Assembly: GCF_003966335.1 (NCBI RefSeq)
Contig: NZ_CP034549.1
Location: 30,001 to 62,000, forward strand
Direction: 5' to 3'
Origin: Nonlabens ponticola
GTDB taxonomy: Bacteria; Bacteroidota; Bacteroidia; Flavobacteriales; Flavobacteriaceae
Length of the DNA stretch: 32,000 bases
Shown: in pieces, positions 1 to 22,188 of the stretch
Position numbering within the stretch: position 1 is the first letter of the stretch
Layout of the letters: each line of letters starts with the position of its first letter
The notes under the pieces: model-generated
What the model was told of the DNA's origin: nothing
Databases searched by the model: none
The model's input: the letters and a program-made list of their open reading frames with translations, nothing else
Position numbers and translations under genes: made by a program

Positions 1-3000
1 GATGCTACCGTTGGGTGCCACCAGTAATGGGTCGCTCACCGTGATGTTGTTGAGCGCCGTGTCTCCGGTATTGGTTACCGTAAAGTCATAGTCGATCGTC
101 TCGCCTACCTGGGCAAAGCCATCTGCGTTGGCATCGTTGAACGTACCTTCCTTGATGATCGCGATGCTGTTGTCCTGTGGAAGTGGCGTCGTCGTCGTAT
201 CATCCTCCAGGTTGCTGTCGTCATCAGATACGTCGCTCACATCGTCGCCGTCATCCGTCGTTCCAGTGGCAGTGGCCTGGTTGTTCACGAAGCCTCGGTC
301 GATGTCTGCCTGCGTGAGCGTCAACGATCCCGTGATCGTTACACTAGCGCCTGGTGCCAGATCCGCGATTGGGCTGCCCGTGATGCTACCGTTGGGTGCC
401 ACCAGTAATGGGTCGCTCACCGTGATGTTGTTGAGCGCCGTGTCTCCGGTATTGGTGACCGTAAAGTCGTAGTCGATCGTCTCGCCTACCTGGGCAAAGC
501 CATCTGCGTTGGCATCGTTGAACGTACCTTCCTTGATGATCGCGATGCTGTTGTCCTGTGGAAGTGGCGTCGTCGTCGTATCATCCTCCAGGTTGCTGTC
601 GTCATCAGATACGTCGCTCACATCGTCGCCGTCATCCGTCGTTCCCGTGGCAGTGGCCTGGTTGTTCACGAAGCCTCGGTCGATGTCTGCCTGCGTGAGC
701 GTCAACGATCCCGTGATCGTTACACTAGTACCCGGTGCCAGATCCGCGATTGGGCTGCCCGTGATGCTACCGTTGGGTGCCACCAGTAATGGGTCGCTCA
801 CCGTGATGTTGTTGAGTGCCGTGTCTCCGGTATTGGTGACCGTAAAGTCGTAGTCGATCGTCTCGCCTACCTGGGCAAAGCCATCTGCGTTGGCATCATT
901 GAACGTACCTTCCTTGATGATCGCGATGCTGTTGTCCTGTGGAAGTGGCGTCGTCGTCGTATCATCCTCCAGGTTGCTGTCGTCATCGGATACGTCGCTC
1001 ACATCGTCGCCGTCATCAGTCGTTCCAGTGGCAGTGGCCTGGTTGTTCACGAAGCCTCGGTCGATGTCTGCCTGCGTGAGCGTCAACGATCCCGTGATCG
1101 TTACACTAGCGCCTGGTGCCAGATCCGCGATTGGGCTGCCCGTGATGCTACCGTTGGGTGCCACCAGTAATGGGTCGCTCACCGTGATGTTGTTGAGCGC
1201 CGTGTCTCCGGTATTGGTGACCGTAAAGTCGTAGTCGATCGTCTCGCCTACCTGGGCAAAGCCATCTGCGTTGGCATCGTTGAACGTACCTTCCTTGATG
1301 ATCGCGATGCTGTTGTCCTGTGGAAGTGGCGTCGTCGTCGTATCATCCTCCAGGTTGCTGTCGTCATCGGATACGTCGCTCACATCGTCGCCGTCATCAG
1401 TCGTTCCCGTGGCAGTGGCCTGGTTGTTCACGAAGCCTCGGTCGATGTCTGCCTGCGTGAGCGTCAACGATCCCGTGATCGTTACACTAGTACCCGGTGC
1501 CAGATCCGCGATTGGGCTGCCCGTGATGCTACCGTTGGGTGCCACCAGTAATGGGTCGCTCACCGTGATGTTGTTGAGCGCCGTGTCTCCGGTATTGGTT
1601 ACCGTAAAGTCATAGTCGATCGTCTCGCCTACCTGGGCGAAACCATCTCTATTGGCGTCGTTGAACGTACCTTCCTTGATGATCGCGATGCTGTTGTCCT
1701 GTGGAAGTGGCGTCGTCGTCGTATCATCCTCCAGGTTGCTGTCGTCATCGGATACGTCGCTCACATCGTCGCCGTCATCAGTCGTTCCAGTGGCAGTGGC
1801 CTGGTTGTTCACGAAGCCTCGGTCGATGTCCGCCTGCGTGAGCGTCAACGATCCCGTGATCGTTACACTAGTACCCGGTGCCAGATCCGCGATTGGGCTG
1901 CCCGTGATGCTACCGTTGGGTGCCACCAGTAATGGGTCGCTCACCGTGATGTTGTTGAGCGCCGTGTCTCCGGTATTGGTTACCGTAAAGTCATAGTCGA
2001 TCGTCTCGCCTACCTGGGCAAAGCCATCTGCGTTGGCATCGTTGAACGTACCTTCCTTGATGATCGCGATGCTGTTGTCCTGTGGAAGTGGCGTCGTCGT
2101 CGTATCATCCTCCAGGTTGCTGTCGTCATCAGATACGTCGCTCACATCGTCGCCGTCATCCGTCGTTCCAGTGGCAGTGGCCTGGTTGTTCACGAAGCCT
2201 CGGTCGATGTCTGCCTGCGTGAGCGTCAACGATCCCGTGATCGTTACACTAGCGCCTGGTGCCAGATCCGCGATTGGGCTGCCCGTGATGCTACCGTTGG
2301 GTGCCACCAGTAATGGGTCGCTCACCGTGATGTTGTTGAGCGCCGTGTCTCCGGTATTGGTGACCGTAAAGTCGTAGTCGATCGTCTCGCCTACCTGGGC
2401 AAAGCCATCTGCGTTGGCATCGTTGAACGTACCTTCCTTGATGATCGCGATGCTGTTGTCCTGTGGAAGTGGCGTCGTCGTCGTATCATCCTCCAGGTTG
2501 CTGTCGTCATCAGATACGTCGCTCACATCGTCGCCGTCATCCGTCGTTCCCGTGGCAGTGGCCTGGTTGTTCACGAAGCCTCGGTCGATGTCTGCCTGCG
2601 TGAGCGTCAACGATCCCGTGATCGTTACACTAGTACCCGGTGCCAGATCCGCGATTGGGCTGCCCGTGATGCTACCGTTGGGTGCCACCAGTAATGGGTC
2701 GCTCACCGTGATGTTGTTGAGCGCCGTGTCTCCGGTATTGGTGACCGTAAAGTCGTAGTCGATCGTCTCGCCTACCTGGGCAAAGCCATCTGCGTTGGCA
2801 TCGTTGAACGTACCTTCCTTGATGATCGCGATGCTGTTGTCCTGTGGAAGTGGCGTCGTCGTCGTATCATCCTCCAGGTTGCTGTCGTCATCGGATACGT
2901 CGCTCACATCGTCGCCGTCATCAGTCGTTCCCGTGGCAGTGGCCTGGTTGTTCACGAAGCCTCGGTCGATGTCTGCCTGCGTGAGCGTCAACGATCCCGT

Positions 3001-4434
3001 GATCGTTACACTAGCGCCTGGTGCCAGATCCGCGATTGGGCTGCCCGTGATGCTACCGTTGGGTGCCACCAGTAATGGGTCGCTCACCGTGATGTTGTTG
3101 AGTGCCGTGTCTCCGGTATTGGTGACCGTAAAGTCGTAGTCGATCGTCTCGCCTACCTGGGCAAAGCCATCTGCGTTGGCATCGTTGAACGTACCTTCCT
3201 TGATGATCGCGATGCTGTTGTCCTGTGGAAGTGGCGTCGTCGTCGTATCATCCTCCAGGTTGCTGTCGTCATCAGATACGTCGCTCACATCGTCGCCGTC
3301 ATCCGTCGTTCCCGTGGCAGTGGCCTGGTTGTTCACGAAGCCTCGGTCGATGTCTGCCTGCGTGAGCGTCAACGATCCCGTGATCGTTACACTAGTACCC
3401 GGTGCCAGATCCGCGATTGGGCTGCCCGTGATGCTACCGTTGGGTGCCACCAGTAATGGGTCGCTCACCGTGATGTTGTTGAGCGCCGTGTCTCCGGTAT
3501 TGGTGACCGTAAAGTCGTAGTCGATCGTCTCGCCTACCTGGGCAAAGCCATCTGCGTTGGCATCGTTGAACGTACCTTCCTTGATGATCGCGATGCTGTT
3601 GTCCTGTGGAAGTGGCGTCGTCGTCGTATCATCCTCCAGGTTGCTGTCGTCATCGGATACGTCGCTCACATCGTCGCCGTCATCAGTCGTTCCCGTGGCA
3701 GTGGCCTGGTTGTTCACGAAGCCTCGGTCGATGTCTGCCTGCGTGAGCGTCAACGATCCCGTGATCGTTACACTAGCGCCTGGTGCCAGATCCGCGATTG
3801 GGCTGCCCGTGATGCTACCGTTGGGTGCCACCAGTAATGGGTCGCTCACCGTGATGTTGTTGAGTGCCGTGTCTCCGGTATTGGTGACCGTAAAGTCGTA
3901 GTCGATCGTCTCGCCTACCTGGGCAAAGCCATCTGCGTTGGCATCGTTGAACGTACCTTCCTTGATGATCGCGATGCTGTTGTCCTGTGGAAGTGGCGTC
4001 GTCGTCGTATCATCCTCCAGGTTGCTGTCGTCATCGGATACGTCGCTCACATCGTCGCCGTCATCAGTCGTTCCCGTGGCAGTGGCCTGGTTGTTCACGA
4101 AGCCTCGGTCGATGTCTGCCTGCGTGAGCGTCAACGATCCCGTGATCGTTACACTAGCGCCTGGTGCCAGATCCGCGATTGGGCTGCCCGTGATGCTACC
4201 GTTGGGTGCCACCAGTAATGGGTCGCTCACCGTGATGTTGTTGAGCGCCGTGTCTCCGGTATTGGTGACCGTAAAGTCGTAGTCGATCGTCTCGCCTACC
4301 TGGGCAAAGCCATCTGCGTTGGCATCGTTGAACGTACCTTCCTTGATGATCGCGATGCTGTTGTCCTGTGGAAGTGGCGTCGTCGTCGTATCATCCTCCA
4401 GGTTGCTGTCGTCATCAGATACGTCGCTCACATC
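1..4434 (-). repeat. 381-bp (127-codon) in-frame tandem repeat array, ~11.6 near-identical units in the window; the array continues past position 1
   Basis: The antisense ORFs in the track start at 128, 509, 890 ... 3938, exactly 381 nt apart. Units differ at only about a dozen positions. The last unit breaks off at 4434/4435 (gctcacatc|gtcgcc in the array versus gctcacatc|tggacc). Each unit encodes an acidic linker (DVSDVSDDDSNLEDDTTTTPLPQDN) plus one DUF11-like beta-sandwich repeat. Confidence 0.97.
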
Positions 4435-6837
4435 TGGACCACTAGGTGGTGTACCTGTAGCTGTAGCTTGATTATTTATGAATCCTCGATCAATGTCCTC
4501 TTGAGTAAGAGTTAAGGAACCTGTGCGAGTTCTTACTGCACCTACAGGTAGATTTGCAATGTTACCTCCATTGATCTGGCCATTGGGAGCAACAAGTAAT
4601 GGGTCTGTAATTCTAACATTAGTCAAATCACGATTCCCTGTATTTTCTATCGTAAAGGTGTATGTTATTTCTTCACCAACTTGTGCAAATCCGTCTCCAT
4701 TAGCATCATTTAATATACCTTCCTTAATGATGGCGATATCGTCATTTCGCGTAAGCGGAGTTATTGTAATATCATCTGGATTACCATTTCCATTTGTATC
4801 AACATTTGTATCGTCATCTGGGTCATCAGATAAATCTGAGACGTCGTCACCATTTGAATTGATACCAGCACCAGTGATCTGATTACGGACCTCACCAGCA
4901 TTAAGATCATCTTGTGTAATCGTATGACGTGAAGTGGTTGTGATCGATTGACCTACATTGAGATTCCCAATGAAATTCCTATCTAATGTGCCGTTGTCAT
5001 CAGTTAAATTAATATTACGCAGTACCGTGTTACCAGTATTAGTAATCACAACGTCATACGTAATCACATCGCCTACCGAGTCGTATGTACCATCTCTATC
5101 ATCCTTGGTAATTGATAGGATACTACCCACGCTGAGAAGTGCTGCATTACTTACCTCACGCGCACAAGCATAAGATGAGCTTGTAACAACTACCCTGTAT
5201 AGATTTCCATTAAATGATTCTGGCGCATCCGTAACTGTGAGTGTATTAGAAAAAACACCACTATAACGAGCATTGTTATTCAAATTTGTAAAATTACCTC
5301 CATTAGTGCTTACCTGCCATCTATAAACTGGATTGCTGCCAGTAGCGGAAACGGAAAACTGTACACTATTATCGTCAGGAGTTACGGCGGTGGTAGCATC
5401 TGGCTGATCTGTAATATTGATGTCAGTTCCTGCTTCTAGAAAGTCTGGCGTTCCATTATTATTTCCATCTCGAGGTGTAGAATATCCATTACCACTTGTT
5501 ACCAAACCATCTTCATCGACGGTAGGCGGAACTTGATTTCCTAATTGACCATCGCCATCATTGTCAATAAAACCTGCCTCAATTACATCTGGACATCCAT
5601 CATCATCTGCATCGCGATCGATTCTATTAGGCAGTCCTGTACCATCTGTATTAGCCGTATCGCCACCTTCATCAACATCTGTAATACCATCATTGTCATC
5701 ATCAAGGTCAACTGAGTCTGCTAGACCATCCTGATCGAAATCGGGTCCATCAACAAAATCATTACCAACTCTTGATGCCTCACGTACAACGACTGTTATC
5801 TCATTATCATTAGCTCCATCCGTATCAGACACTGATGCTATATCGAATCCTGTAGGCACGTCAGTTTGTAGATCGATTTCTCTAATGGTAAATACTTGTT
5901 CATTAGTCCCATCTCTAACTACGGTGAATTGGTAATCTCCATTTGCATCAGTAGTTGTGGCTTCAATGAAATTACCGCCTTCATCATACAGCTCTACTCT
6001 TACACCTGAAATTCCTGAACCGCTATCTCTCAATACCGTTCCACATATTAGTGGGTTTGAGACAAATGTTTGGACTGGTTGTTGAAATTCTGCCCTTTCA
6101 AGAACTAGAGCGTAAAAACGATTTGACTGAGTTCCATTACCTACTTTACCAACGCGGTAAGTAAAAGTATTTCTACTCTCATAATAATTACTAAAGGTGT
6201 AGCGAGGATCTTGATCAATAGGCTCTACGGGCGCGGATCGTCCATCAATATTCTGTCCTCTAATGATAGTACCATTAGCACCCGTGCGGTCTATATCAAT
6301 TTCAGTCACTGCAGATACAGTATAAGCATCTGTCAAGGAAAGCTCTGCAAATTCACGTATGCTATTGGCTCCATTCCCGCCGCCACCATCTATGTCAAAT
6401 GGTGACGCGTAAAAACACACATTCTGACTAGGTGTATTAGTTCCAGCATTAACCAGCCTGATAGTAAATAATGCGTTTATATTACCAGAATTATTTGCAG
6501 AAATACGTGGCTGAAAAGCCCTAGGCAAACCTGAATCTGAAACATCAATATCTAAAAGCGTCGTACGATTAAGTTCTGTGATTTCAACTAAGATATCGAT
6601 AGCAGGATTGCTTGCAGTGGCTCCTGCAGCGTTAGGAAACCTATACACTGTACCCACGGCGAGCGGTGCACCACCATTATCAATTACAGGATCAGAATCA
6701 AAAGACACTATATCAAAACAGTTCTCTCTCAAGCAAGATCGCGACTGAGCTATCGCTGTCAGTGAAAAACAGCTGACGAGAAAAAATAGTAATAATGATC
6801 TAGTAGGAAAATTGTTTACTAAAGTAGAGTTGTTCAT
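1..6837 (-). CDS. Giant repetitive cell-surface (adhesin-like) protein, N-terminal 2279 codons; the C-terminus lies beyond position 1
   Basis: I checked the minus-strand frame (codons at 3n+1..3n+3) line by line across 4441-6837, through one full repeat unit, and at every variant site. No tta/cta/tca occurs in register from the ATG at 6837-6835 down to position 1. The N-terminus MNNSTLVNNFPTRSLLLFFLVSCFSLTAIAQS looks like a signal peptide. It is followed by ~250 aa of unknown fold and a Cna-B/SdrD-B-like segment (CGTVLRDSGSGISGVRVELYDEGGNFIEATTTDANGDYQFTV). Next come Asp-rich thrombospondin-type-3-like Ca-binding repeats (DQDGLADSVDLDDDNDGITDVDEG; DRDADDDGCPDVIEAGFIDNDGDGQ) and an Ig-like module (VQFSVSATGSNPVYRWQVSTNGG...YRVVVTSSSYAC). 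The rest is DUF11-type repeats (GETIDYDFTVTNTGDTALNNITVSDPLL). It is absent from the ORF track only because it is open at the window edge. Confidence 0.88.
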   Translation of the reverse strand, partial: MNNSTLVNNFPTRSLLLFFLVSCFSLTAIAQSRSCLRENCFDIVSFDSDPVIDNGGAPLAVGTVYRFPNAAGATASNPAIDILVEITELNRTTLLDIDVSDSGLPRAFQPRISANNSGNINALFTIRLVNAGTNTPSQNVCFYASPFDIDGGGGNGANSIREFAELSLTDAYTVSAVTEIDIDRTGANGTIIRGQNIDGRSAPVEPIDQDPRYTFSNYYESRNTFTYRVGKVGNGTQSNRFYALVLERAEFQQPVQTFVSNPLICGTVLRDSGSGISGVRVELYDEGGNFIEATTTDANGDYQFTVVRDGTNEQVFTIREIDLQTDVPTGFDIASVSDTDGANDNEITVVVREASRVGNDFVDGPDFDQDGLADSVDLDDDNDGITDVDEGGDTANTDGTGLPNRIDRDADDDGCPDVIEAGFIDNDGDGQLGNQVPPTVDEDGLVTSGNGYSTPRDGNNNGTPDFLEAGTDINITDQPDATTAVTPDDNSVQFSVSATGSNPVYRWQVSTNGGNFTNLNNNARYSGVFSNTLTVTDAPESFNGNLYRVVVTSSSYACAREVSNAALLSVGSILSITKDDRDGTYDSVGDVITYDVVITNTGNTVLRNINLTDDNGTLDRNFIGNLNVGQSITTTSRHTITQDDLNAGEVRNQITGAGINSNGDDVSDLSDDPDDDTNVDTNGNGNPDDITITPLTRNDDIAIIKEGILNDANGDGFAQVGEEITYTFTIENTGNRDLTNVRITDPLLVAPNGQINGGNIANLPVGAVRTRTGSLTLTQEDIDRGFINNQATATGTPPSGPDVSDVSDDDSNLEDDTTTTPLPQDNSIAIIKEGTFNDANADGFAQVGETIDYDFTVTNTGDTALNNITVSDPLLVAPNGSITGSPIADLAPGASVTITGSLTLTQADIDRGFVNNQATATGTTDDGDDVSDVSDDDSNLEDDTTTTPLPQDNSIAIIKEGTFNDANADGFAQVGETIDYDFTVTNTGDTALNNITVSDPLLVAPNGSITGSPIADLAPGASVTITGSLTLTQADIDRGFVNNQATATGTTDDGDDVSDVSDDDSNLEDDTTTTPLPQDNSIAIIKEGTFNDANADGFAQVGETIDYDFTVTNTGDTALNNITVSDPLLVAPNGSITGSPIADLAPGTSVTITGSLTLTQADIDRGFVNNQATATGTTDDGDDVSDVSDDDSNLEDDTTTTPLPQDNSIAIIKEGTFNDANADGFAQVGETIDYDFTVTNTGDTALNNITVSDPLLVAPNGSITGSPIADLAPGASVTITGSLTLTQADIDRGFVNNQATATGTTDDGDDVSDVSDDDSNLEDDTTTTPLPQDNSIAIIKEGTFNDANADGFAQVGETIDYDFTVTNTGDTALNNITVSDPLLVAPNGSITGSPIADLAPGTSVTITGSLTLTQADIDRGFVNNQATATGTTDDGDDVSDVSDDDSNLEDDTTTTPLPQDNSIAIIKEGTFNDANADGFAQVGETIDYDFTVTNTGDTALNNITVSDPLLVAPNGSITGSPIADLAPGASVTITGSLTLTQADIDRGFVNNQATATGTTDDGDDVSDVSDDDSNLEDDTTTTPLPQDNSIAIIKEGTFNDANADGFAQVGETIDYDFTVTNTGDTALNNITVSDPLLVAPNGSITGSPIADLAPGTSVTITGSLTLTQADIDRGFVNNQATATGTTDDGDDVSDVSDDDSNLEDDTTTTPLPQDNSIAIIKEGTFNDANRDGFAQVGETIDYDFTVTNTGDTALNNITVSDPLLVAPNGSITGSPIADLAPGTSVTITGSLTLTQADIDRGFVNNQATATGTTDDGDDVSDVSDDDSNLEDDTTTTPLPQDNSIAIIKEGTFNDANADGFAQVGETIDYDFTVTNTGDTALNNITVSDPLLVAPNGSITGSPIADLAPGASVTITGSLTLTQADIDRGFVNNQATATGTTDDGDDVSDVSDDDSNLEDDTTTTPLPQDNSIAIIKEGTFNDANADGFAQVGETIDYDFTVTNTGDTALNNITVSDPLLVAPNGSITGSPIADLAPGTSVTITGSLTLTQADIDRGFVNNQATATGTTDDGDDVSDVSDDDSNLEDDTTTTPLPQDNSIAIIKEGTFNDANADGFAQVGETIDYDFTVTNTGDTALNNITVSDPLLVAPNGSITGSPIADLAPGASVTITGSLTLTQADIDRGFVNNQATATGTTDDGDDVSDVSDDDSNLEDDTTTTPLPQDNSIAIIKEGTFNDANADGFAQVGETIDYDFTVTNTGDTALNNITVSDPLLVAPNGSI
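4435..5130 (-). repeat. Two diverged, AT-rich paralogues of the same DUF11-type unit (ancestral-looking copies)
   Basis: The unit next to the array (...IAIIKEGILNDANGDGFAQVGEEITYTFTIENTGNRDLTNVRITDPLLVAPNGQINGG...GSLTLTQEDIDRGFINNQATATGT) matches the array unit at 68 of 96 core residues by my count, but uses AT-rich codons. The next unit (GDVITYDVVITNTGNTVLRNINLTDDNG...HTITQDDLNAGEVRNQ) is more diverged. The boundaries are approximate. Confidence 0.6.
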
Positions 6838-7152
6838 CGACAATATTATTATGATAATAAGACTGACTAGAAAGGGACAACTTTCCTACAAAGCAAAACA
6901 CGAAGCAGAAACTGAGCCCCTAACCTCAGTCATCTACATTCTTAAAATTATTAGAATGTCTTGCAAAAGTAAACGTTTCGCGCTGTCCCACAAATACTTT
7001 CGGCTGGGACGCATAATAGTCGTTTAAAAGATGCTAGCGATCTTTATTGTTAACATTTGTTCAGTTAACACAGGTTGCATTTAGATTTTATTTTAGCATG
7101 TCTCCATAGATAAAACCTTTAATCCATAAAAAAAGCCATTCAACTTATATAC

Positions 7153-7422: not shown

Positions 7423-7430
7423 TTGCTTAG

Positions 7431-7503
<73 letters not shown>

Positions 7504-8149: not shown

Positions 8150-8327
8150 ATTGACCTATTTCTCTAGCCTCAAAACTTACCAACTCGCCATCTTCAAAAG
8201 CTACTGATAACTCAATTGGATTGCAACAGACCTCACAATCTTCTACATAGGTCTGACTATACGCTGGATCCAGCAACATAGATATTTGCTGCCAGCAGTG
8301 TGGGCAAGAGAAAAAGTGCTCAATCAT
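8148..8327 (-). CDS. CPXCG-motif cysteine-rich small protein (59 aa), not in the ORF track
   Basis: My manual translation is MIEHFFSCPHCWQQISMLLDPAYSQTYVEDCEVCCNPIELSVAFEDGELVSFEAREIGQ*. The two Cys pairs (CPHC ... CEVCC) and YVEDCxVCCxPI match the CPXCG family (PF14255) as I remember it. Its ATG (8327-8325) overlaps the TGA of the upstream OMF gene (8326-8324) as ATGA. Confidence 0.75.
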   Translation of the reverse strand: MIEHFFSCPHCWQQISMLLDPAYSQTYVEDCEVCCNPIELSVAFEDGELVSFEAREIGQ

Positions 8328-12700: not shown

Positions 12701-12908
12701 CCTCAATCTTGAGAACAACGCCTTCTTCAATCTCTTGTGGTGATGCTCCTGGATAAATTACATTAATTAGAATGACCTTAGAGTCAACCAATGGGAAAAA
12801 TGAAGACTTAAGTGACAAAGCGCCGACGATCCCAAAAATGATAAATGCAAAAATCACGATGTTCACCGCGATGCTGTGCTTTATAAAGTATGCTATGACA
12901 TTTCTCAT
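9687..12908 (-). CDS. RND efflux transporter permease (AcrB/CzcA superfamily), 1073 aa
   Basis: The length, the N-terminal TM helix followed by a large periplasmic loop, and the repeated clusters of hydrophobic helices match RND permeases. Typical segments include FGLPIAFLGMFIF, GIVIAENI, and ALIGIMVNDGLVLI. Its end overlaps the OMF start by 14 nt. Confidence 0.9.
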   Translation of the reverse strand: MRNVIAYFIKHSIAVNIVIFAFIIFGIVGALSLKSSFFPLVDSKVILINVIYPGASPQEIEEGVVLKIEDNLEGIEGIDRVTSASRENSGTITVEIIKGYDIDFMLLEVKNAVDRVPSFPIGMEPLVVAKQEESRPTITFALSGSNVPLKTLKDISRDIENDLRGIEGISQITISGFPEEEIEIAVNENSLLAYNVTFTEVAAAVSNSNILVTGGNIKTDVEEYLIRANGRSYYGDELNYTPVRTRADGTQILLKDVAIVRDRFSETPNSTEYNDEVAVTLTITSTNAEDLIDSADKTKEYIENFNKRYSNVQLNVVSDQSKVLNQRTALLTENAIIGMLLVLVFLSVFLNTRLAFWVAFGLPIAFLGMFIFAGQFDVTINVLSLFGMIIVIGILVDDGIVIAENIYQHYEDGKSPIDAAVEGTMEVIPPIMSAIITTILAFSTFLFLDGRIGEFFSEVSVIVILTLVVSLVEALIILPAHLAHSKALKHQEDRSEKPKKGIGKLFAKMRSVNEYGDRAMNWMRDNVYAPALKFTIDFKVLVFSFFLVAFILTLGSINGGIIGVTLFPQISSDRVSVTLEMPNGTSERITDSIITHIESKAKIVNQELTKEYLQDYPDSVKLFENIITSQTSSSSANLSINLLPGEERPQSLKSSIVSNRLRELVGDIPSAERLIFGSGGNFGGSPVAVSLLSNNIDELKAATAEFKAELQSNPLLKDITDNDPAGIKEIKLELKENAYALGLNLQQVMSQVRAAFFGREAQRFQRGQDEIRVWVRYDRDNRNSIKDLDELRITTPDGSLVPLRDIADYQIERGEVVINHLEGRREIQVTADLVDPNQSTTDILTNIRENIVPELQKKYPTISPNYLSGQAREANKISESASVVFPMVLVLIYFVIAFTFRSATQPIMLILLIPFSLIAVGWGHWIHGFPVNILSMLGIIALIGIMVNDGLVLIGKFNTLLKSGLEFDEALYEAGKSRFRAIFLTSLTTIAGLAPLLLETSRQAQFLKPMAISISYGIGLATLLTLLLLPLFLSFGNNAQVWLTWLWTGEKPDKRKVTTAYQEKHNDTEYEEE

Positions 12909-17593: not shown

Positions 17594-18484
17594 TTAATAA
17601 TTCCACATATCAATTTCAAAATTGCGGATAATCTCTTGCAATCTTTGAGATTCTAAAAGCTGCATCATGGAATTATCTGCAATGTAAGAGTCGATATCCC
17701 TATCGCCTTGTACATTGTCAATCTTATAGATCACAGCGTTAAACCTTCTAGAGTTCAACAAATGATCAAAGGATATTGGCCGTGCTGAGTTTTGCGAATT
17801 GAAGGATTTTGCCTCGTGTAAAATGTTGCGTGCGTCTGGATAGAACACCCAGAACAACTCTACCCCAGTCTTATCTTCTAAGAAATTTACATCTGGCGTT
17901 ACTGGCGCTATACCTATCAAACGATACTTTAGTTCCGCTTGACGCGTGTCAAAATACCAAACACCACGTATGCGGTACTCATCTACCATGTTAGCGTTGA
18001 TGGTGGTGGTTGTGATATACTCAGCAGGAACACTACCGGTTTGATTATAAATTTCAATACCAGCATCTGATGTATCCACGCGACGTAAACTGCTACCTAG
18101 GTCTTGGAAATTTGCCTTAGTATTGAAGTAAGAATCTCTGTATAATTCGATTTGTCCTTCACGAGCTGCTTTGGTCAATACATGAAACAACGATCTACGA
18201 TTACCACCTACAAAGTTGGTATCCACAGGATAGTACAATGGGAAGTTCATACGCTCGTCCAGATCAATAGATTCCCAAACATTGCGCTGCCACAATATGT
18301 CCCGATCACCTACAAAACCGTAAGGTAAAGGCTCATCATTATCGTTAATTAATTGCTCTAGCGTTTTCTCACCTATCTCGTCCGGTGATTTTGCATTGAG
18401 AATATTGTTCTGTGCTTGCAAGCTTCCTGTGATAAACACAGCGACAAGCAATAAGAGGACTTTATTCATAATTTCTTTTTTCAA
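17594..18484 (-). CDS. gldN: Gliding motility / T9SS periplasmic ring protein GldN (PorN)
   Basis: It is 296 aa with a signal peptide (MKKEIMNKVLLLLVAVFITGSLQAQ). It sits directly after gldM with a 3-nt gap. The size and sequence character are those of GldN. Confidence 0.88.
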   Translation of the reverse strand: MKKEIMNKVLLLLVAVFITGSLQAQNNILNAKSPDEIGEKTLEQLINDNDEPLPYGFVGDRDILWQRNVWESIDLDERMNFPLYYPVDTNFVGGNRRSLFHVLTKAAREGQIELYRDSYFNTKANFQDLGSSLRRVDTSDAGIEIYNQTGSVPAEYITTTTINANMVDEYRIRGVWYFDTRQAELKYRLIGIAPVTPDVNFLEDKTGVELFWVFYPDARNILHEAKSFNSQNSARPISFDHLLNSRRFNAVIYKIDNVQGDRDIDSYIADNSMMQLLESQRLQEIIRNFEIDMWNY

Positions 18485-18487
18485 TAA

Positions 18488-20038
18488 TTAGTCTGTCAAC
18501 TCAATAGAAACAGGAGTCGTTGACTTTAACTGCTGCCCTGGCACTGTTGACTTGATCTGTGCAATTTGTACTATAGCTCCTTGAGGTGCTCTTGCTAGTG
18601 CAGCCTTAGCCGCTGCATTCAATTTATTACCAGAAACCTTTACACCTGGCACACCAGGTACTTTGAAAATAAATTGAGTTACTCGTGGAGTAAGATCAAA
18701 GTCAAAGTCTAAGAACTCTGATGATACGGTAGATATTGCAAGGTTTGCACGATTTTTACGCACACCATCAAATTCTCCTGAAATCATACCCGTAGGATTA
18801 GGCAATCCTTTAATACGGAAGGTTTTTGAATCACGTACTGTCTCGCCGGTTTCTAGTGTACCTGTGACATTGATATCCACTGTTGCTCCTGAACTTGGTT
18901 TCATATTATAACTAGCTCCACCACGTGAACTCAAACCTGGCGCACTTGCCTTAACTCTGTTATTAGGAACACCTGCAAAGGATATGGTCATAGGATTATC
19001 AACACCTCTATATACCACGTTCATTTTGTCTGCACTAATAGTTGCACTGTTCGGCTTTCCTATTACAGAGTATTTTTGGTTAATAGGAATTACTATCGTA
19101 GAATCGCCTTCCATAAATTGCATCTCACCACTGATCGTCTTGTCTCCTACTGATCCAGCACCAAAGCTCAACTGAACTGCACCATTTTTAATCTGACTTG
19201 CAGGAACTTCAGAGCCATTGATAATTACTTTACTTGGTTTCAGGTTAGAGTCGTAACGACCCAACACTACTTCACCTGTAACAGTTTCTCCATTAAAGAA
19301 AGCTCCTTTATCTAAACTAACAATAGTTTGATAATTGTTCATGGACGCGATCTCGATCAACTCACCTTGTAGCAATTGACCTAAAACATCCGCTTGAGCA
19401 TTCTTGACATCATTCTGCATTTGTGTCAACTTTGCTTTTGAAGCAATCAGTGGATAACCTTCATAGTGATATCTCAAATAGTTAATCTTTTCACTATCTG
19501 GATCATCCATCTCTGAAGGAACATCACTTGTGTCGAATTTCTCCTTGATCTCAGTTCTCAATTGATCGTATCCTTCTTCAGGTAACGCATCTAACATGCC
19601 GGTACGATATGCATCCATTTGAGACAAAAACTCCTGTCCATCTGGTGACAAACCATCACCGCTAAATAATTTAGAATCTAAATAATCGGTTTTATCCTGA
19701 GTCTGAAAATCACCTCGGTCTTCTTCTGGAATAGATTCCATCATCCCGCTTTTGAGAGAAGCTAGGTATTCATCAAATCGATTAGAAACTTCAGAAACCT
19801 GCTCGGCAGATGCAACGGCTTCTTTGAACTGTTCTGGTTGTTCCTGCGCTTTTTGCTCTAGTTGAGCTAGAGAAGCCTCATTACGAGTCTCTAGGGTAGC
19901 ATTATTCTCTGCAACACTTTCTTCAATAATACCGAAAGCCGTAAGAACCTCTTTACTCATATTAAGGGCCAGCATCGCGATAAAAACCAAATACATTAGG
20001 TTAATCATCTTTTGCCTTGGGCCTTGTCCTCCTGCCAT
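18488..20038 (-). CDS. gldM: Gliding motility / T9SS motor-associated protein GldM (PorM)
   Basis: The N-terminus MAGGQGPRQKMINLMYLVFIAMLALNMSKEVL is the highly conserved GldM start with a single TM helix. The protein is 516 aa and lies between gldL and gldN. Confidence 0.93.
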   Translation of the reverse strand: MAGGQGPRQKMINLMYLVFIAMLALNMSKEVLTAFGIIEESVAENNATLETRNEASLAQLEQKAQEQPEQFKEAVASAEQVSEVSNRFDEYLASLKSGMMESIPEEDRGDFQTQDKTDYLDSKLFSGDGLSPDGQEFLSQMDAYRTGMLDALPEEGYDQLRTEIKEKFDTSDVPSEMDDPDSEKINYLRYHYEGYPLIASKAKLTQMQNDVKNAQADVLGQLLQGELIEIASMNNYQTIVSLDKGAFFNGETVTGEVVLGRYDSNLKPSKVIINGSEVPASQIKNGAVQLSFGAGSVGDKTISGEMQFMEGDSTIVIPINQKYSVIGKPNSATISADKMNVVYRGVDNPMTISFAGVPNNRVKASAPGLSSRGGASYNMKPSSGATVDINVTGTLETGETVRDSKTFRIKGLPNPTGMISGEFDGVRKNRANLAISTVSSEFLDFDFDLTPRVTQFIFKVPGVPGVKVSGNKLNAAAKAALARAPQGAIVQIAQIKSTVPGQQLKSTTPVSIELTD

Positions 20039-20086
20039 AATTGTAGTCTAATTGGTTGTTTTTAATTAATTGAAATGAAGAACTAA

Positions 20087-20749
20087 TTATCCTTTCATTG
20101 CTCCTAGCATGTTTCCATACACGCCATTAAGACTACTCAAATTATTGGCAAGACCTTCCATTTGGTCCTTAAGTCTAGCAGCGTTGTTAGCAACCTCTTG
20201 GTTAACTTCTGCCTGACGAGCGGTGCTTTCTACTTGAACCTTATATAGACTATTTAATGATTCCATTTGTGCTGCGGCAAGTGCCATTTCCTCAGAGTAT
20301 TTCTTAGTGGAAGACATTGCTTCAGCCGTCGGTGCCATTCCTTTGGCAGCACCTTCAAAGCTTCTGATGCTTGTTCCTAGACTCTCCATTAGTGCAGCAT
20401 CTACTTTTGCTTCTTTAAGCATTTCATCCAGCTTTTTAGATAGCATACTCTCTGCCTCTGCAGTTTCCTGTAATTGATTTTTCGCTTTCGCGGAAGCGGT
20501 ACCACCAGCAAGCTCTGGATAAACTAGTGACCAATCTAGATCATCATCAACTGGTTCAAACGCAGAAATCGCAAAAATCGCAGCCTCGGTGAGAAGACCA
20601 ATTGCTAAAAGGTCACCACCAGTAAGAGTATAAAATCCTAAAGGAAGTTCCCAGTGTAGAATTTTAAATAGAGCTCCAACGATTACAATTGCTGCTCCTA
20701 GGCCATAAGCCATGTTAAATAATTTCTTTGTTCCTTTAGATTGTGCCAT
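20087..20749 (-). CDS. gldL: Gliding motility / T9SS motor protein GldL (PorL)
   Basis: The protein is 220 aa. It has two N-terminal TM helices (FNMAYGLGAAIVIVGALFKILHW; LAIGLLTEAAIFAISAFEP, with the conserved Glu) followed by a helical cytoplasmic tail. Confidence 0.92.
   Translation of the reverse strand: MAQSKGTKKLFNMAYGLGAAIVIVGALFKILHWELPLGFYTLTGGDLLAIGLLTEAAIFAISAFEPVDDDLDWSLVYPELAGGTASAKAKNQLQETAEAESMLSKKLDEMLKEAKVDAALMESLGTSIRSFEGAAKGMAPTAEAMSSTKKYSEEMALAAAQMESLNSLYKVQVESTARQAEVNQEVANNAARLKDQMEGLANNLSSLNGVYGNMLGAMKG
20483..20498. repeat. One-mismatch copy of the 16-nt palindrome (CGCTTTCGCgGAAGCG) inside gldL
   Basis: It is read on the minus strand as A-S-A-K-A (in GGTASAKAKNQ), in the linker after the TM helices. 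Confidence 0.75.
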
Positions 20750-20785
20750 GTGTTAGGGTACTTTATTATTAAATGTTGAATAAAC

Positions 20786-22153
20786 TTATCTAGTTGACGC
20801 GTTGAGCGTCACGTCTGTACCGACATAAGATTGTACGGTACGGAAACCAATATAACTCCTTGCTGAATCTTGATACTCATAATCGCGAGTACCTACTTGT
20901 AAAAAATACGAAACGTCTTTCCACGATCCACCGCGCACGCCTTTACGGCGATTGTTAGCGTCGTTAACCACAGGGTTCATTGAACTCATATACTCATACG
21001 CTCCTGGCTCGTAGGATGAGTTCACCCATTCTGCCACGTTACCAGACATATTGTAAAGATTGTAATCGTTAGGCTCATAAGAATCTGCCTCGACCGTATA
21101 CAATGCTTGATCAGCAGCGTAATCTCCACGCAATGGCTTGAAGTTAGCTAAAAAACAACCACGGTCATTTTTTGCATAAGGACCACCCCATGGATAAGTT
21201 GCACTTTCTAGACCACCGCGAGCGGCGTATTCCCATTCTGCCTCACTAGGCAATCTGTATTCAAAAACATCATCACGGCCTTTTTGTTTTCTCACATAAC
21301 CATTGTGATACAACGTTCTCCATTGAGCAAACGCCTTTGCTTGCTCCCAATTGACTCCAACAACAGGATAATCACTGTATGCCTCATGATAATAGTAATC
21401 ATTGTGCATAGGTTCATTATAGCTATAATTAAAATCTCTAATCCACACGGTAGTGTCTGGATAAACATTAATCGTTTTTGTTTGAATAAAATCCTTGCGA
21501 CTCATATCAGGATTTCTTGCAGCACCTTCAGAATCCTTCTCTGAATATCTAAAAATCAATTTCTCAACATCAATTGTTCTCTTACCATTGTACGCCTCTT
21601 CAAAAGGTATGTACATACTATCGTAAGCTTCAGCATAGTATTCATCAGGAATATCTTCTGTATCCCAGATAAGCTCTTCTCTCCAATTTAATTTGCGGCC
21701 CTCGTATCCAGTCTCGCCCAAACCAACATAATTGTCAATAACATACTGCTCCCATACTGTTGGGTTTTGATTGTTGGCATCAACAAAGGCAAAATCACCA
21801 GTGCCACCGCTACCAGCAGTAAGACCTTCATCATCAGCAATAATCGCTAACCTCATTCTAAGAGTAGAATCACGTACCCAATTAGTAAATTGGCGGTATT
21901 CAGAATTAGTTATTTCCGTCTCATCCATATAAAAGGAGGAAACTGTAACAGTTTTGGCAGGAGCATTTTGCACAGCAGCAATATCGTCGTCTGCCTTACC
22001 CATAATGAAAGATCCACCTGGAACTAGTGTCATTCCATACGGTTTTTCTGGATACCATTTTTTACCATCTACGCCTACTAATTGACCGCGATCGCCCTTA
22101 CCACAACTAGCAAGAAAAACAACCATCACGACGAGCATGAGTAACTTTTTCAT
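20786..22153 (-). CDS. gldK: Gliding motility / T9SS lipoprotein GldK (PorK), SUMF1/FGE-sulfatase-fold
   Basis: The start is placed at Met11 (ATG 22153), which gives a lipoprotein signal with a lipobox (MKKLLMLVVMVVFLASCGK). The track start at 22183 is an alternative. FGE-like motifs are present (RVxRGGSW-like: VRGGSWKD; EWEYAARGG; GNVAEWV). Confidence 0.9.
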   Translation of the reverse strand: MKKLLMLVVMVVFLASCGKGDRGQLVGVDGKKWYPEKPYGMTLVPGGSFIMGKADDDIAAVQNAPAKTVTVSSFYMDETEITNSEYRQFTNWVRDSTLRMRLAIIADDEGLTAGSGGTGDFAFVDANNQNPTVWEQYVIDNYVGLGETGYEGRKLNWREELIWDTEDIPDEYYAEAYDSMYIPFEEAYNGKRTIDVEKLIFRYSEKDSEGAARNPDMSRKDFIQTKTINVYPDTTVWIRDFNYSYNEPMHNDYYYHEAYSDYPVVGVNWEQAKAFAQWRTLYHNGYVRKQKGRDDVFEYRLPSEAEWEYAARGGLESATYPWGGPYAKNDRGCFLANFKPLRGDYAADQALYTVEADSYEPNDYNLYNMSGNVAEWVNSSYEPGAYEYMSSMNPVVNDANNRRKGVRGGSWKDVSYFLQVGTRDYEYQDSARSYIGFRTVQSYVGTDVTLNASTR

Positions 22154-22188
22154 ATGTAAATCCCTATTAGAAACGAATTTCAAGCTGG

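What the first reader, a model, noticed from the sequence alone, without database searches (positions are those of the whole stretch)
1..4434. GC-rich, almost perfectly homogenised 381-bp coding tandem array with a knife-edge junction to AT-rich paralogous repeats
The period is exactly 381 bp, or 127 codons. About 11.6 units lie in the window and the array runs off the edge. By hand count, nt 1-360 are 204/360 = ~57% G+C. The 360 nt just after the array (4441-4800) are 140/360 = ~39%, and they encode a clearly homologous DUF11 unit (68/96 core residues identical by my count). The switch occurs within a few nucleotides at 4434/4435, inside an uninterrupted ORF. Units differ at only about 12 positions, and nearly all differences are synonymous (tct/tcc Ser, acg/act Thr, gcg/gca Ala, gtc/gta Val, tac/tat Tyr, aac/aat Asn). 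I found two replacements: GASV versus GTSV, and NADG versus NRDG in the unit near 1640. Variant sites assort in different combinations between units, giving a mosaic pattern. In addition, nt 1 to ~860 match nt 1906 to ~2765 with one difference that I could find, which indicates a 5-unit (1905-bp) higher-order duplication. Together this looks like recent amplification plus ongoing gene conversion under protein-level constraint. The 18-point composition gap between paralogous units of one gene needs an explanation. It could be GC-biased gene conversion in a recombining array, or capture of a foreign GC-rich unit followed by expansion. Identical-repeat surface proteins in other phyla (for example the Rib/alpha-C and Bap types) vary copy number. 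I am not aware of this having been described for flavobacterial DUF11-type adhesins.
Basis: partly seen in the sequence, partly recalled or inferred. Interest (0 to 1): 0.72.

Follow-up and report, generated by a model that had tools for sequence, protein, structure and literature searches.

The report
GC-rich repeat stalk in flavobacterial adhesin
A giant surface adhesin gene of the marine bacterium Nonlabens ponticola has a run of near-identical 381-bp repeats whose silent codon positions are far richer in G+C than the rest of the genome; this oddity is inherited across the genus rather than recently imported, so it could serve as a natural test of whether recombination itself pushes bacterial DNA towards G+C.

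Summary
Window 1-4434 holds 11.6 copies of a 381-bp unit (98% match, no indels). It is 57.4% G+C against 41.2% for the rest of the window, and the switch falls within about 15 nt inside one open reading frame on the minus strand.

The gene comes from the complete genome of Nonlabens ponticola. It encodes a fibrillar adhesin: signal peptide, head domain, then a stalk of CLIPPER_2 (DUF7507) domains. An ortholog ends in a T9SS sorting domain.

The G+C excess lies only at third codon positions (GC3 0.71 against 0.25 in the same gene). Units differ at 17 sites, 14 of them synonymous, in mosaic combinations. This fits concerted evolution under protein constraint.

Recent capture of a foreign unit is disfavoured:
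- No donor was found in any collection.
- The unit carries a Nonlabens-specific insertion.
- N. agnitus has a homologous array with GC3 0.55-0.69.
- An uncultured Nonlabens shows the same AT-to-GC junction.

Similar GC3-rich blocks occur in unrelated AT-rich marine contigs. In one four-genome family the block is at compositional equilibrium.

The force that maintains the G+C is unresolved. GC-biased gene conversion is my favoured explanation, but AT-rich homogenised arrays show no such bias.

The array type is known (Periscope-like). The inherited composition step is new as far as I could find.

The parts
1..4434 (-). GC-rich homogenised array: 11 full units plus one 243-nt partial unit of 381 bp (127 codons). 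Each unit encodes one CLIPPER_2 (DUF7507) domain plus an Asp/Thr-rich linker. The array runs off the window at its 3' (C-terminal) side.
   Evidence: TRF. Unit table. GC1/2/3 = 0.55/0.46/0.71. Pfam PF24346. tblastn of the unit, 98.4-100% identity.
4420..4450 (-). AT/GC junction. The last AT-rich codons (...GGTCCA) meet the first array codons (GATGTGAGCGAC...) at 4435/4434, inside the open frame.
   Evidence: Sequence. 30-nt G+C bins. The same junction appears in the ortholog of uncultured Nonlabens 105-3Z.
4435..4845 (-). AT-rich CLIPPER_2 unit (aa 665-801) with a longer linker. It is paralogous to the array unit and shares the Nonlabens-specific LVAPNG insertion and a 2-residue deletion.
   Evidence: 84/127 aa identical, GC3 0.21. 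Alignment A1. Motif survey.
4846..5124 (-). First, more diverged AT-rich CLIPPER_2 unit (aa 572-664).
   Evidence: Pfam stretches. Coordinates.
5125..6741 (-). Non-repeat N-terminal part. Head region (aa 33-263, no family hit). CarboxypepD_reg/SdrD_B-like domain (aa 264-324). Asp-rich thrombospondin-type-3-like calcium-binding stretch (aa 363-470; this label is from my reading of the sequence). Ig-like domain (aa 471-571).
   Evidence: Translation. Pfam PF13620. Orthologs N. marinus 67% and Nonlabens MAG 56% identity over 100% of the query. Coordinates.
6742..6837 (-). Start codon (ATG at 6837) and predicted signal peptide MNNSTLVNNFPTRSLLLFFLVSCFSLTAIAQS.
   Evidence: The signal peptide is inferred from the hydrophobic core and the AxA-like site, not from a predictor.
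6964..6971 (-). Candidate Bacteroidetes-type -7 promoter box TACTTTTG, 127 nt upstream of the ATG.
   Evidence: Pattern search. The motif is not enriched in the window (22 found, 26 expected), so this is a lead only.
1639..1657 (-). Patch of 7 clustered differences in unit 8 (including NADG to NRDG). It looks like a short conversion tract from a diverged copy.
1..860 (-). Segment identical, bar one base (817), to 1906-2765, five units away. It is a recent multi-unit duplication or an unequal exchange.
17594..22183 (-). gldK-gldL-gldM-gldN (T9SS core), 10 kb from the adhesin gene. This is context for the predicted secretion route, not part of the array.
   Evidence: NCBIfam GldK and GldN equivalogs. 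Source names GldL and GldM.

Best explanation
What it is. The array is the stalk of a giant fibrillar adhesin of Nonlabens ponticola, most likely secreted by the type IX system. The window holds at least 11.6 near-identical 127-residue CLIPPER_2 (DUF7507) domains. These are Ig-like domains of the CnaA type, predicted to be locked by a Lys-Asn isopeptide bond.

How the units stay alike (concerted evolution; Periscope-type architecture). Unequal exchange and gene conversion between units keep them alike, while purifying selection keeps the protein.

The G+C excess. It is purely a third-codon-position effect, and it is not a recent import. The same GC3-rich unit type occupies the orthologous place in other Nonlabens species. 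The block was therefore already GC-rich in their common ancestor and has been held there, against the AT-biased background, by a force confined to the homogenised block.

The force. I consider the most likely one to be a G+C bias in the repair of heteroduplex mismatches formed during inter-unit conversion. That would be a bacterial, intragenic form of GC-biased gene conversion.

Shown: the anatomy, domain family, third-position confinement, mosaic synonymous variation, inheritance across species, absence of a donor, and recurrence elsewhere.
Inferred: T9SS secretion of this protein, the isopeptide bond, and above all the nature of the force. I put gBGC at roughly 0.35-0.4 on its own. The confidence below is for the whole statement with the force left as 'conversion-linked drive or copy-number-amplified synonymous selection'.
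For: Anatomy and family.
- K31, D71 and N115 are conserved at the spacing given for DUF7507 (Lys72/Asp112/Asn152) in PMC12617251.
- The AF2 model has pLDDT 85.9 and is all-beta.

Secretion: gldKLMN lie in the window. The 3' part of the N. marinus ortholog carries CHU_C.

Concerted evolution: 98% unit identity within N. ponticola but 68% aa and 69% nt identity to N. agnitus units. Of 17 variable sites, 14 are synonymous, and four-gamete pairs are frequent.

Third-position confinement: GC1/2/3 is 0.55/0.46/0.71 in the array and 0.53/0.44/0.25 in the 5' part. Sixteen other genes have GC3 0.29-0.46.

In-lineage origin:
- The DPLLVAPNG insertion occurs only in Nonlabens units (N. ponticola GC and AT units, N. 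agnitus, N. antarcticus) plus one ENA contig. It is in none of 100 other loci.
- N. agnitus contig CM009580.1 is all array, with GC 0.53 and unit GC3 0.55-0.69. It matches the N. ponticola unit by blastn at 70-73% over 278 nt (E=1e-42). Codon identity is 53/86 against 45.0+-3.2 expected from codon usage (P=0.010).
- The ortholog L001 turns GC-rich (GC3 0.20 to 0.48) and matches the N. ponticola unit start exactly where its contig ends.

No donor: the best non-Nonlabens matches are 70% or less. Synonymous identity to all of them is at chance level.

A maintained force:
- In four orthologous contigs about 20% diverged (L046, L042, L056, L057) the GC block is conserved. Singleton changes are balanced, W>S 24 to S>W 22, giving an implied equilibrium GC of 0.56 against the current 0.54.

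Link with homogenisation:
- GC3-rich blocks are the most homogenised sub-arrays: L046 94-99%, L082 89-94%, L101 97%.
- The within-locus GC3/identity correlation is positive in 29 of 41 loci (p=0.012).
- TRF %match against delta-GC gives rho 0.29, p=0.024.

Bacterial gBGC has published support (PMC4450053).
Against: Against gBGC specifically:
- Homogenised arrays that stay AT-rich exist: Dokdonia L002 at 89%, L023 at 92-95%.
- Across 360 units there is no global GC3/identity correlation (rho 0.07).
- Among units of AT-rich arrays the S and W alleles are equally often the majority (245 to 234).
- Several A-ending codons persist in the unit (CCA 76% of Pro, GTA 40%, GCA 36%, CGA 92%). An indiscriminate W-to-S drive would not obviously leave these.
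- GC1 and GC2 barely follow GC3 (slopes 0.01 and 0.09).
- N. ponticola shows no G+C gradient into the neighbouring AT unit.

Against the general picture:
- The C-terminus, the second junction and the true copy number are outside the window.
- Polishing of a long-read assembly could create part of the mosaic pattern.
- The equilibrium test rests on 46 changes in a different lineage.
- Nucleotide identity between two GC3-biased units is slightly inflated by shared codon bias.
Confidence: 0.55

Rival explanations
1. Selection on synonymous sites, multiplied by copy number. In a homogenised array a synonymous variant ends up in every unit, so a tiny per-site effect is multiplied by N and becomes visible to selection. 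Candidate effects include loss of AT-rich spurious promoters or terminators, fewer slippage-prone runs, and changes in mRNA stability or translation pace. The array then settles on its own codon regime.
For: - The shift is confined to third positions, with almost no spill-over to GC1/GC2.
- Preferences are codon-specific rather than uniform: ACG 79%, ATC 100%, CAG 100%, AAG 100%, yet CCA 76% and CGA 92%.
- The same codon regime is shared by the N. ponticola and N. agnitus arrays. Expected codon identity from usage alone is already 45/86.
- There is no homopolymer run of 4 or more in 4.4 kb, and no TAnnTTTG box in the array.
- The analogous block is at equilibrium.
- AT-rich arrays show no conversion bias.
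Against: - ACG, AGC and CTG are minority codons in the 16 other genes of the window, so ordinary translational optimisation is unlikely.
- Many equally long homogenised arrays in related genomes stay AT-rich.
- The homopolymer and motif depletions are expected from composition alone, and rest effectively on one 381-nt unit.
Confidence: 0.25
2. Foreign origin. A GC-rich block of units was captured from another organism, either recently in N. ponticola or anciently in the Nonlabens ancestor. It was then amplified, and its composition is a relic.
For: - Atypical composition with a knife-edge border.
- GC-rich organisms with 381-bp CLIPPER_2 units 61-70% identical in protein exist: L024, L025.
- Two GC units of L082 are closer to L024 units (0.65-0.72) than to their own AT neighbours (0.52-0.53).
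- In N. agnitus the GC-rich and AT-rich units alternate with sharp borders.
Against: Recent capture is contradicted by:
- the homologous GC-rich arrays in N. agnitus;
- the conserved junction in L001.

Any capture from a distant donor is contradicted by:
- the Nonlabens-specific insertion and deletion shared with the AT-rich neighbour unit;
- the lack of any closer relative among 5.8 billion proteins, 1.84 billion representatives, 241 million metagenome records and PLSDB;
- chance-level synonymous identity to all GC-rich candidates.

A relic should be decaying, but the analogous L046 block is not (24 W>S to 22 S>W).
Confidence: 0.12
3. Assembly or polishing artefact. The copy number, the extreme homogeneity and the mosaic of variants are products of collapsing and consensus-polishing of a repeat longer than the reads.
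For: - Every other Nonlabens assembly fails here. N. marinus has a 9,874-N gap. In N. agnitus the array sits at contig ends plus an orphan 5.65-kb 'plasmid'. N. antarcticus yields 240-540-bp contigs. L001 ends in it.
- The N. ponticola record also encodes frameshifted copies of the same unit outside the window: P0025, P0041, P0043, P0048-50.
- Their accession numbers (AZQ45114, 45259, 45260 against AZQ42721-33 for the window's genes) suggest the array may span the record's origin. This last point is inference.
Against: - The 4.4 kb in the window keeps one frame open through 1,478 codons. It has 9 distinct unit sequences and a clean 14:3 synonymous excess. Random errors would not produce that.
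- The composition step is seen independently in N. agnitus DNA and in L001, so it cannot be an artefact.
Confidence: 0.08

Closest known systems
Periscope Proteins (SasG/Aap, Rib, Sgo_0707, Esp, CdrA; PMC8201768)
   Same: A surface protein whose stalk is a long tandem array of globular domains encoded by nearly identical DNA repeats. High DNA identity is thought to allow intragenic recombination and length variation. An N-terminal functional region is projected from the cell.
   Different: - The domain type here is CLIPPER_2, and the host is a marine flavobacterium.
- Length variation between isolates was not testable here.
- That paper does not mention G+C content (0 occurrences).
- The conserved GC3 step is not part of the class description.
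CLIPPER / CLIPPER_2 (DUF11 / DUF7507) fibrillar adhesins, e.g. Acinetobacter silvestris B9T28_05395, PDB 9IFR (PMC12617251)
   Same: - Pfam PF24346 matches 14 times.
- Lys, Asp and Asn sit at the expected spacing.
- The architecture is a tandem stalk.
- The family is very large: 12,025 representative proteins, with up to about 59 units per protein.
   Different: - The solved structure is of CLIPPER, not CLIPPER_2.
- Neither sequence search nor Foldseek retrieved 9IFR.
- The anchor here is probably a T9SS CHU_C domain rather than OmpA-like.
- The isopeptide bond is untested.
Flavobacterial T9SS cell-surface adhesins with CHU_C-type C-terminal domains (SprB/RemA kind; from my own knowledge)
   Same: A giant repetitive protein with a Sec signal peptide. 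The gldKLMN genes lie nearby, and the ortholog has a CHU_C end. Head-domain relatives are annotated as SprB-repeat or gliding-motility C-terminal-domain proteins.
   Different: There are no SprB repeats in the visible part. The C-terminus of this protein is outside the window. A role in gliding is unknown.
GC-biased gene conversion in gene families under concerted evolution (mammalian histone, Hsp70 and rDNA arrays, from my own knowledge; bacterial gBGC, PMC4450053)
   Same: Copies that keep converting each other have a much higher GC3 than single-copy DNA, with sharp limits at the edge of the converting block.
   Different: - Here the setting is intragenic and bacterial.
- The bias itself is not demonstrated.
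- AT-rich converting arrays of the same family show no S-allele excess.
Horizontally acquired genomic islands with atypical composition
   Same: An abrupt composition change relative to the genome.
   Different: The block lies inside one ORF and is paralogous to its neighbours. It is present in sister species, has no donor, and shows no sign of amelioration in the analogous family.

Membership tests
CLIPPER_2 (DUF7507, PF24346) domain | Match to the Pfam model above the gathering score | tested here: met
   E=0, 1014 bits against a cut-off of 27, 14 stretches. The precomputed annotation of relatives is the same.
CLIPPER_2 (DUF7507, PF24346) domain | Lys / catalytic Asp / Asn triad for an intramolecular isopeptide bond, at about 40 + 40 residue spacing | tested here: met
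   K31 and D71 are invariant and N115 is at least 90% conserved in alignment A1. The spacing is 40 and 44 residues, against 40 and 40 for A0A2I2KYV6; the unit has a net +3 indel. The bond itself is not testable here.
CLIPPER_2 (DUF7507, PF24346) domain | Compact seven-strand CnaA-like beta-sandwich | tested here: inconclusive
   The AF2 model has pLDDT 85.9 and 8 strand segments. Foldseek against the PDB gave only generic Ig-like sandwiches, none with E<=0.001, and 9IFR was not in the top 50.
Periscope Protein class | Long tandem repeats of high DNA identity encoding whole globular domains in a surface protein | tested here: met
   381 bp x 11.6 at 98% identity, one domain per unit, signal peptide present.
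Periscope Protein class | Repeat number varies between strains | not testable with these tools
   Only one N. ponticola genome exists, and it is withheld from the look-up tools. The indirect evidence is that all related assemblies break in the array.
T9SS-secreted adhesin | C-terminal sorting domain (CHU_C / type B CTD) | not testable with these tools
   The C-terminus lies beyond the window edge. The 3' part of the N. marinus ortholog has PF13585 CHU_C.
T9SS-secreted adhesin | Host has a T9SS, and the protein has a Sec signal peptide | tested here: met
   GldK and GldN equivalogs and GldL/GldM names in the window. The N-terminal hydrophobic leader ends in AIAQS; this was read by eye.
Array shaped by GC-biased gene conversion | G+C excess at silent sites, restricted to the converting copies | tested here: met
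   GC3 is 0.71 in the array and 0.21-0.25 in flanking units of the same gene. The same pattern occurs in L046, L082, L089 and L103.
Array shaped by GC-biased gene conversion | GC3 rises with conversion intensity | tested here: inconclusive
   Within-locus correlation is positive in 29/41 loci, p=0.012. TRF rho is 0.29, p=0.024. The global rho is 0.07, and AT-rich arrays at 89-95% identity exist.
Array shaped by GC-biased gene conversion | S alleles spread preferentially over W alleles among copies | tested here: inconclusive
   S-major to W-major counts: AT-rich arrays 245:234, GC-richer arrays 252:198, this window 11:5. The alleles are unpolarised, so non-equilibrium cannot be excluded.
Horizontally acquired segment | Closer relative in a compositionally matching donor than in the host lineage | tested here: not met
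   The best outside hits are 70% protein identity or less, with synonymous identity at chance. The closest DNA relative is the N. agnitus array.
Horizontally acquired segment | Absent from sister species | tested here: not met
   It is present in N. agnitus and at the orthologous junction of uncultured Nonlabens 105-3Z.

The most novel reading that the evidence does not exclude
Homogenised intragenic repeat arrays in bacteria can evolve to, and stay at, their own G+C equilibrium. Here GC3 is about 0.7 in a genome with GC3 of about 0.3-0.4. The cause would be that repair of inter-unit heteroduplexes is G+C-biased. If so, the Nonlabens adhesin array and its analogues (L046 family, L082, L089, L101) would be the first clear intragenic, single-genome read-out of GC-biased gene conversion in bacteria. 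The flanking paralogous units of the same gene would serve as a built-in control.
Probability: 0.3. Interest if true: 0.8.

Novelty: new variant of a known kind. Interest (0 to 1): 0.58.

Why it matters
Whether recombination biases bacterial base composition is still argued, mostly from genome-wide correlations (PMC4450053). This gene places GC3 0.71 and GC3 0.21-0.25 units of the same domain, under the same protein constraint, next to each other in one reading frame. The arrangement persists across Nonlabens species, and look-alikes occur in unrelated marine lineages. That gives a compact system in which mutation bias, conversion bias and synonymous selection can be separated, using long reads, population data and recoding experiments.

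There are also practical consequences. These arrays break even 'complete' genome assemblies, as with the 9.9-kb gap in N. marinus. They create spurious 'plasmids', as with the 5.65-kb N. agnitus record. They fragment annotation into dozens of short ORFs. As a result, adhesin repertoires of marine Flavobacteriia are under-reported.

Tried and rejected
Source genome:
- I tried to fetch the rest of the array from it. Exact look-ups of window proteins and of the N. ponticola fragments all failed, and the genome-collection scan did not return N. ponticola. The 3' junction, C-terminus and copy number therefore remain unseen.

Donor hunt:
- Searches run: the unit against 5.8 billion proteins, PLSDB by tblastn, 241 million metagenome records and 1.84 billion representatives. 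Nothing exceeded 70% identity outside Nonlabens.
- The GC-rich contig L024 looked like a donor lineage at first, with the same 381-bp period. Its synonymous identity to the unit is at chance and it lacks the Nonlabens indels, so I rejected it.

Analogue rejected:
- The L027-L030 family was first counted as an analogous case. It was rejected because the host is a mid-GC genome. There the GC3-high part is a non-repetitive SprB/DUF11 stalk and the AT-poor head is the odd part.

Tests that gave nothing:
- Global correlation of GC3 with homogenisation: absent. Only within-locus tests are positive.
- Transition signature at four-fold sites between the AT and GC units: none, the sites are saturated.
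- Direction of minor alleles in the array: too few sites.
- Fold match to the solved CLIPPER structure: not retrieved.

Features dismissed:
- Antisense 114-aa ORFs in every unit are by-products of G+C-rich coding sequence.
- Homopolymer depletion and CpG excess are noted, but neither separates the hypotheses.

Literature:
- Searches for a prior description of GC-rich homogenised adhesin repeats found none. The library is limited to open-access text.

Full report
**1.

Tandem Repeats Finder reports one array at 1-4434: period 381, 11.6 copies, 98% matches, no indels. The array is 57.4% G+C and the other 27.6 kb are 41.2%. No 381-nt window outside the array exceeds 47.8% (mean 41.2, sd 2.5). The change happens between two adjacent 30-nt bins.

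The coding strand is the minus strand. One frame is open from 6885 to nt 1, with ATG at 6837 and a hydrophobic leader. The window therefore shows the 5' end of the gene and loses its 3' end.

There are 17 variable sites among the 11 full units, rather than about 12. Fourteen are synonymous third-position changes. Only 24% of random changes would be synonymous, so this excess has P=6.6e-7.

Nine of the eleven units are distinct, and 21 of 36 informative site pairs show all four allele combinations. The 'mosaic' is therefore real in this sequence.

The five-unit repeat is partly confirmed. 1-860 and 1906-2765 differ at one base. Over the whole overlap, however, the five-unit shift (9.9 mismatches/kb) is no better than shifts of eight or ten units.

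**2. What the gene is**

Ten neighbouring proteins are exact matches to Nonlabens ponticola, from a single 2,872,100-bp record.

Pfam places 14 DUF7507 domains in the visible 2,279 residues. This family was renamed CLIPPER_2 in 2025. It is a compact CnaA-like domain predicted to carry a Lys-Asn isopeptide bond catalysed by an Asp, and it is typical of fibrillar-adhesin stalks (PMC12617251).

In the unit, K31 and D71 are invariant and N115 nearly so, at the expected spacing. An AlphaFold model is confident (pLDDT 85.9) and all-beta. Neither sequence search nor Foldseek recovered the one solved CLIPPER structure. Fold-level membership therefore rests on the HMM.

The order of parts is:
- signal peptide;
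- a 230-residue head with no family hit;
- a CarboxypepD_reg/SdrD_B-like domain;
- an Asp-rich calcium-binding-type stretch;
- an Ig-like domain;
- two AT-rich CLIPPER_2 units;
- the array.

The T9SS core genes gldK, L, M and N lie 10 kb away. The N. marinus ortholog (67% identity over the head) resumes after a gap with CLIPPER_2 units and a CHU_C sorting domain. I therefore read the protein as a T9SS-secreted fibrillar adhesin whose stalk is of the 'Periscope' kind (PMC8201768). The secretion route is inferred.

The family is huge: 12,025 representative proteins match the unit, with up to about 59 units per protein.

**3. Where the G+C excess sits**

It is entirely a third-position effect. 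GC1/GC2/GC3 are 0.55/0.46/0.71 in the array and 0.53/0.44/0.25 in the 5' part of the same gene. Sixteen other genes of the window have GC3 0.29-0.46.

Codon choice differs sharply from the background:
- ACG is 79% of Thr codons, against 19% in the background.
- ATC is 100% of Ile, CAG 100% of Gln and AAC 88% of Asn.
- Some A-ending codons nevertheless stay common: CCA, GTA, GCA, CGA.

CpG is over-represented (1.27 against about 0.9), as it is in analogous blocks elsewhere.

The adjacent AT-rich unit shares 84/127 residues with the array unit but only 27% of third positions. Synonymous sites between the two are saturated, and four-fold sites show no transition signature.

**4. Foreign capture is unlikely, and recent capture is excluded**

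No donor was found. The best hits to the unit outside Nonlabens are 70% identical or less:
- among 5.8 billion proteins;
- in PLSDB, where the alphaproteobacterial relatives are 52% or less;
- among 241 million metagenome records;
- in an exhaustive HMMER scan of 1.84 billion representatives.

A GC-rich contig with the same 381-bp period (L024) looked promising. Its codon identity with the unit equals what shared codon bias predicts.

The unit carries a five-residue insertion (DPLLVAPNG). This is found only in Nonlabens units, including the AT-rich neighbour in the same gene, N. agnitus and N. antarcticus, plus one ENA contig. It is in none of 100 other loci. A two-residue deletion is shared only with the AT-rich neighbour.

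The strongest evidence comes from sister species.

(a) L001 is the ortholog in an uncultured Nonlabens. It has the same head and the same two AT-rich units. Its contig stops 25 codons into the third unit. At that point GC3 jumps from 0.20 to 0.48 and the DNA matches the start of the N. ponticola unit, including the 12-mer ACGCCACTTCCA.

(b) I first reconstructed N. agnitus codons from annotated frameshifted protein fragments. The method was validated on N. ponticola fragments. I then obtained the DNA itself.
- Record CM009580.1, a 5,650-bp 'plasmid', is nothing but CLIPPER_2 array: 387 bp x 13.7 and 417 bp x 3.6.
- Its G+C is 0.53 and unit GC3 is 0.55-0.69.
- Two AT-richer units (GC3 0.32-0.44) are set in with knife-edge borders.
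- The reconstructed 33- and 39-mers occur in it verbatim.
- The N. ponticola unit aligns to it by blastn at 70-73% over 278 nt, E=1e-42.
- Codon identity at identical residues is 53/86, against 45.0+-3.2 expected from codon usage, P=0.010.
- The N. ponticola AT-rich unit shows no such excess.

Units are thus about 99% alike within N. ponticola but only 68% alike in protein between species, and both arrays are GC3-rich. This is classical concerted evolution of a block that was already GC-rich before these species split.

**5. The array defeats assemblers**

- N. marinus S1-08, a 'complete' genome, has 9,874 Ns starting inside the second unit. AT-rich units lie at both edges.
- In N. agnitus the fragments carry locus tags at the very end and very start of the chromosome record and on the orphan 'plasmid'.
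- N. antarcticus has it in 240-540-bp contigs.
- The N. ponticola record encodes at least six short ORFs that are frameshifted copies of the same unit and are not in the window.
- Their accession numbers lie about 2,400-2,540 above those of the window's genes. This suggests, but does not show, that the array spans the origin of the record.

Copy number and part of the fine-scale mosaic must therefore be treated as provisional. The composition step is seen in independent assemblies and so is safe.

**6. The pattern recurs elsewhere**

Among 76 metagenome loci and 8 genome loci holding related units, several AT-rich contexts (flank G+C 0.36-0.44) contain blocks of units with GC3 0.55-0.82, flanked in the same frame by units with GC3 0.12-0.38:
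- L046 and its orthologs L042, L056 and L057;
- L082;
- L089.

L101 is a 499-bp x 5 array at 97% identity and 58% G+C that drops to 44% after the array.

In these loci the GC-rich blocks are the most homogenised sub-arrays: 94-99% in L046 against 78% for the adjacent AT-rich array, and 89-94% in L082. Their closest protein relatives are often their own AT-rich neighbours.

The four L046-family contigs are about 20% diverged in DNA, yet all keep the block at 0.52-0.56 G+C next to 0.39-0.44. Changes private to one contig are balanced in the block: W>S 24 to S>W 22, implying an equilibrium of 0.56 against the current 0.54. A relic decaying towards the local background should show roughly a 3.5-fold S>W excess. 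Something therefore maintains the composition.

**7. What maintains it is not settled**

In favour of a conversion-linked G+C bias:
- the confinement to converting blocks;
- a positive within-locus relation between a unit's GC3 and its identity to another unit (29 of 41 loci, p=0.012);
- a weak relation between array identity and G+C excess over 59 arrays of several domain types (rho 0.29, p=0.024). The N. ponticola array is the extreme at +0.16.

Against it:
- the global correlation is nil;
- AT-rich arrays at 89-95% identity exist;
- in AT-rich arrays the G/C allele is the majority as often as the A/T allele (245:234). Only GC-richer arrays show a skew (252:198), which non-equilibrium could also produce;
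- GC1 and GC2 hardly follow GC3;
- some A-ending codons are retained.

The last two points fit selection on synonymous sites better. Homogenisation would multiply such selection by copy number.

I rank the explanations as follows: conversion-linked drive first, amplified synonymous selection second, ancient import third, and artefact (for composition) essentially excluded.

**8. Novelty and verdict**

The array as such is a new member of a known class (Periscope-type stalk built of CLIPPER_2 domains), and that part is ordinary. The composition step is not ordinary. It is confined to silent sites, sharp to within a few codons, inherited across a genus, recurrent in other lineages, and apparently at equilibrium.

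I found no description of it in the searchable literature. That library covers open-access text only.

I score it as a new variant of a known kind and of moderate-to-good interest. The mechanism is unproven, but the system would make a long-standing question directly testable.

Noticed in passing
L103 (N. agnitus CM009580.1, 1-5650): The record labelled as a 5,650-bp plasmid consists only of CLIPPER_2 repeat units with many frameshifts. It is almost certainly an unplaced piece of the chromosomal adhesin array, circularised by the assembler, and not a plasmid.
   Followed up: partly
L102 12114-21987 (N. marinus AP014548.1): The 'complete' genome has a 9,874-N gap exactly where the orthologous adhesin array should be. 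The gene is annotated as two partial proteins of 704 and 930 aa, the second ending in CHU_C.
   Followed up: partly
L103 1812-2576: Two AT-richer units (GC3 0.32-0.44) sit inside the GC-rich N. agnitus array. Nearly the same linker sequence (AATGATCCAACGGATACGGACCTTC) occurs at both borders, as if units of the two composition classes are exchanged as cassettes at the linker.
   Followed up: no
window 128-4282, + strand: Every unit carries a 114-aa antisense ORF (TTG start). An AT-rich 354-bp array in L023 has 108-aa antisense ORFs that a gene caller even annotated. I read these as by-products of codon-biased repeats, but did not test this.
   Followed up: no
window 1-4434: There is no homopolymer run of 4 nt or more in the whole array, against 14.9/kb in the rest of the window. 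Other arrays (Dokdonia L002, the AT-rich units) are also depleted. CpG observed/expected is 1.27 in the array against about 0.9 elsewhere, and the L046 and L082 GC blocks show the same direction.
   Followed up: partly
window 7430-7503 (-) and 26173-26263 (-): tRNA-Met (CAT) lies about 600 nt upstream of the adhesin start. A Flavo-1 sRNA (Rfam RF01705, 58 bits) lies between topA and miaB.
   Followed up: no
window 8324-14062 (-): This is an RND efflux operon (TolC-like OEP, AcrB-like pump, HlyD-like adaptor). The mechanical ORFs for the OEP and the pump overlap by 254 nt, so the listed TTG start of the OEP is probably too far upstream.
   Followed up: no
window 23437-23541: Short 36/18-nt imperfect repeats (70-76% match) lie at the 3' end of the topA ORF (23433-25982, minus strand).
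   Followed up: no
L024 1-16197 (ENA ERZ1757541 contig_5570): A long-read contig that is one frameshift-ridden giant adhesin, with three arrays of different composition (G+C 0.66, 0.64 and 0.61) and non-repeat parts at 0.45-0.50. This is another compositional mosaic, in a GC-richer host.
   Followed up: partly
L027 5471-14719: In a SprB-repeat adhesin of more than 3,083 aa, GC3 steps from 0.30-0.40 in the head to 0.52-0.70 in the DUF11/DUF7507/SprB stalk, with no detectable tandem DNA identity. Intragenic composition steps in these adhesins are therefore not limited to homogenised arrays.
   Followed up: partly
N. ponticola proteins P0025, P0041, P0043, P0048-P0050 (outside the window): Six short annotated ORFs are frameshifted copies of the same GC-rich unit. 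One shift maps to the CCCAAC of LVAPNG. Either the rest of the array is degraded or mis-polished, or a second copy of the array exists about 145 genes away (AZQ45114 against AZQ45259/60).
   Followed up: partly
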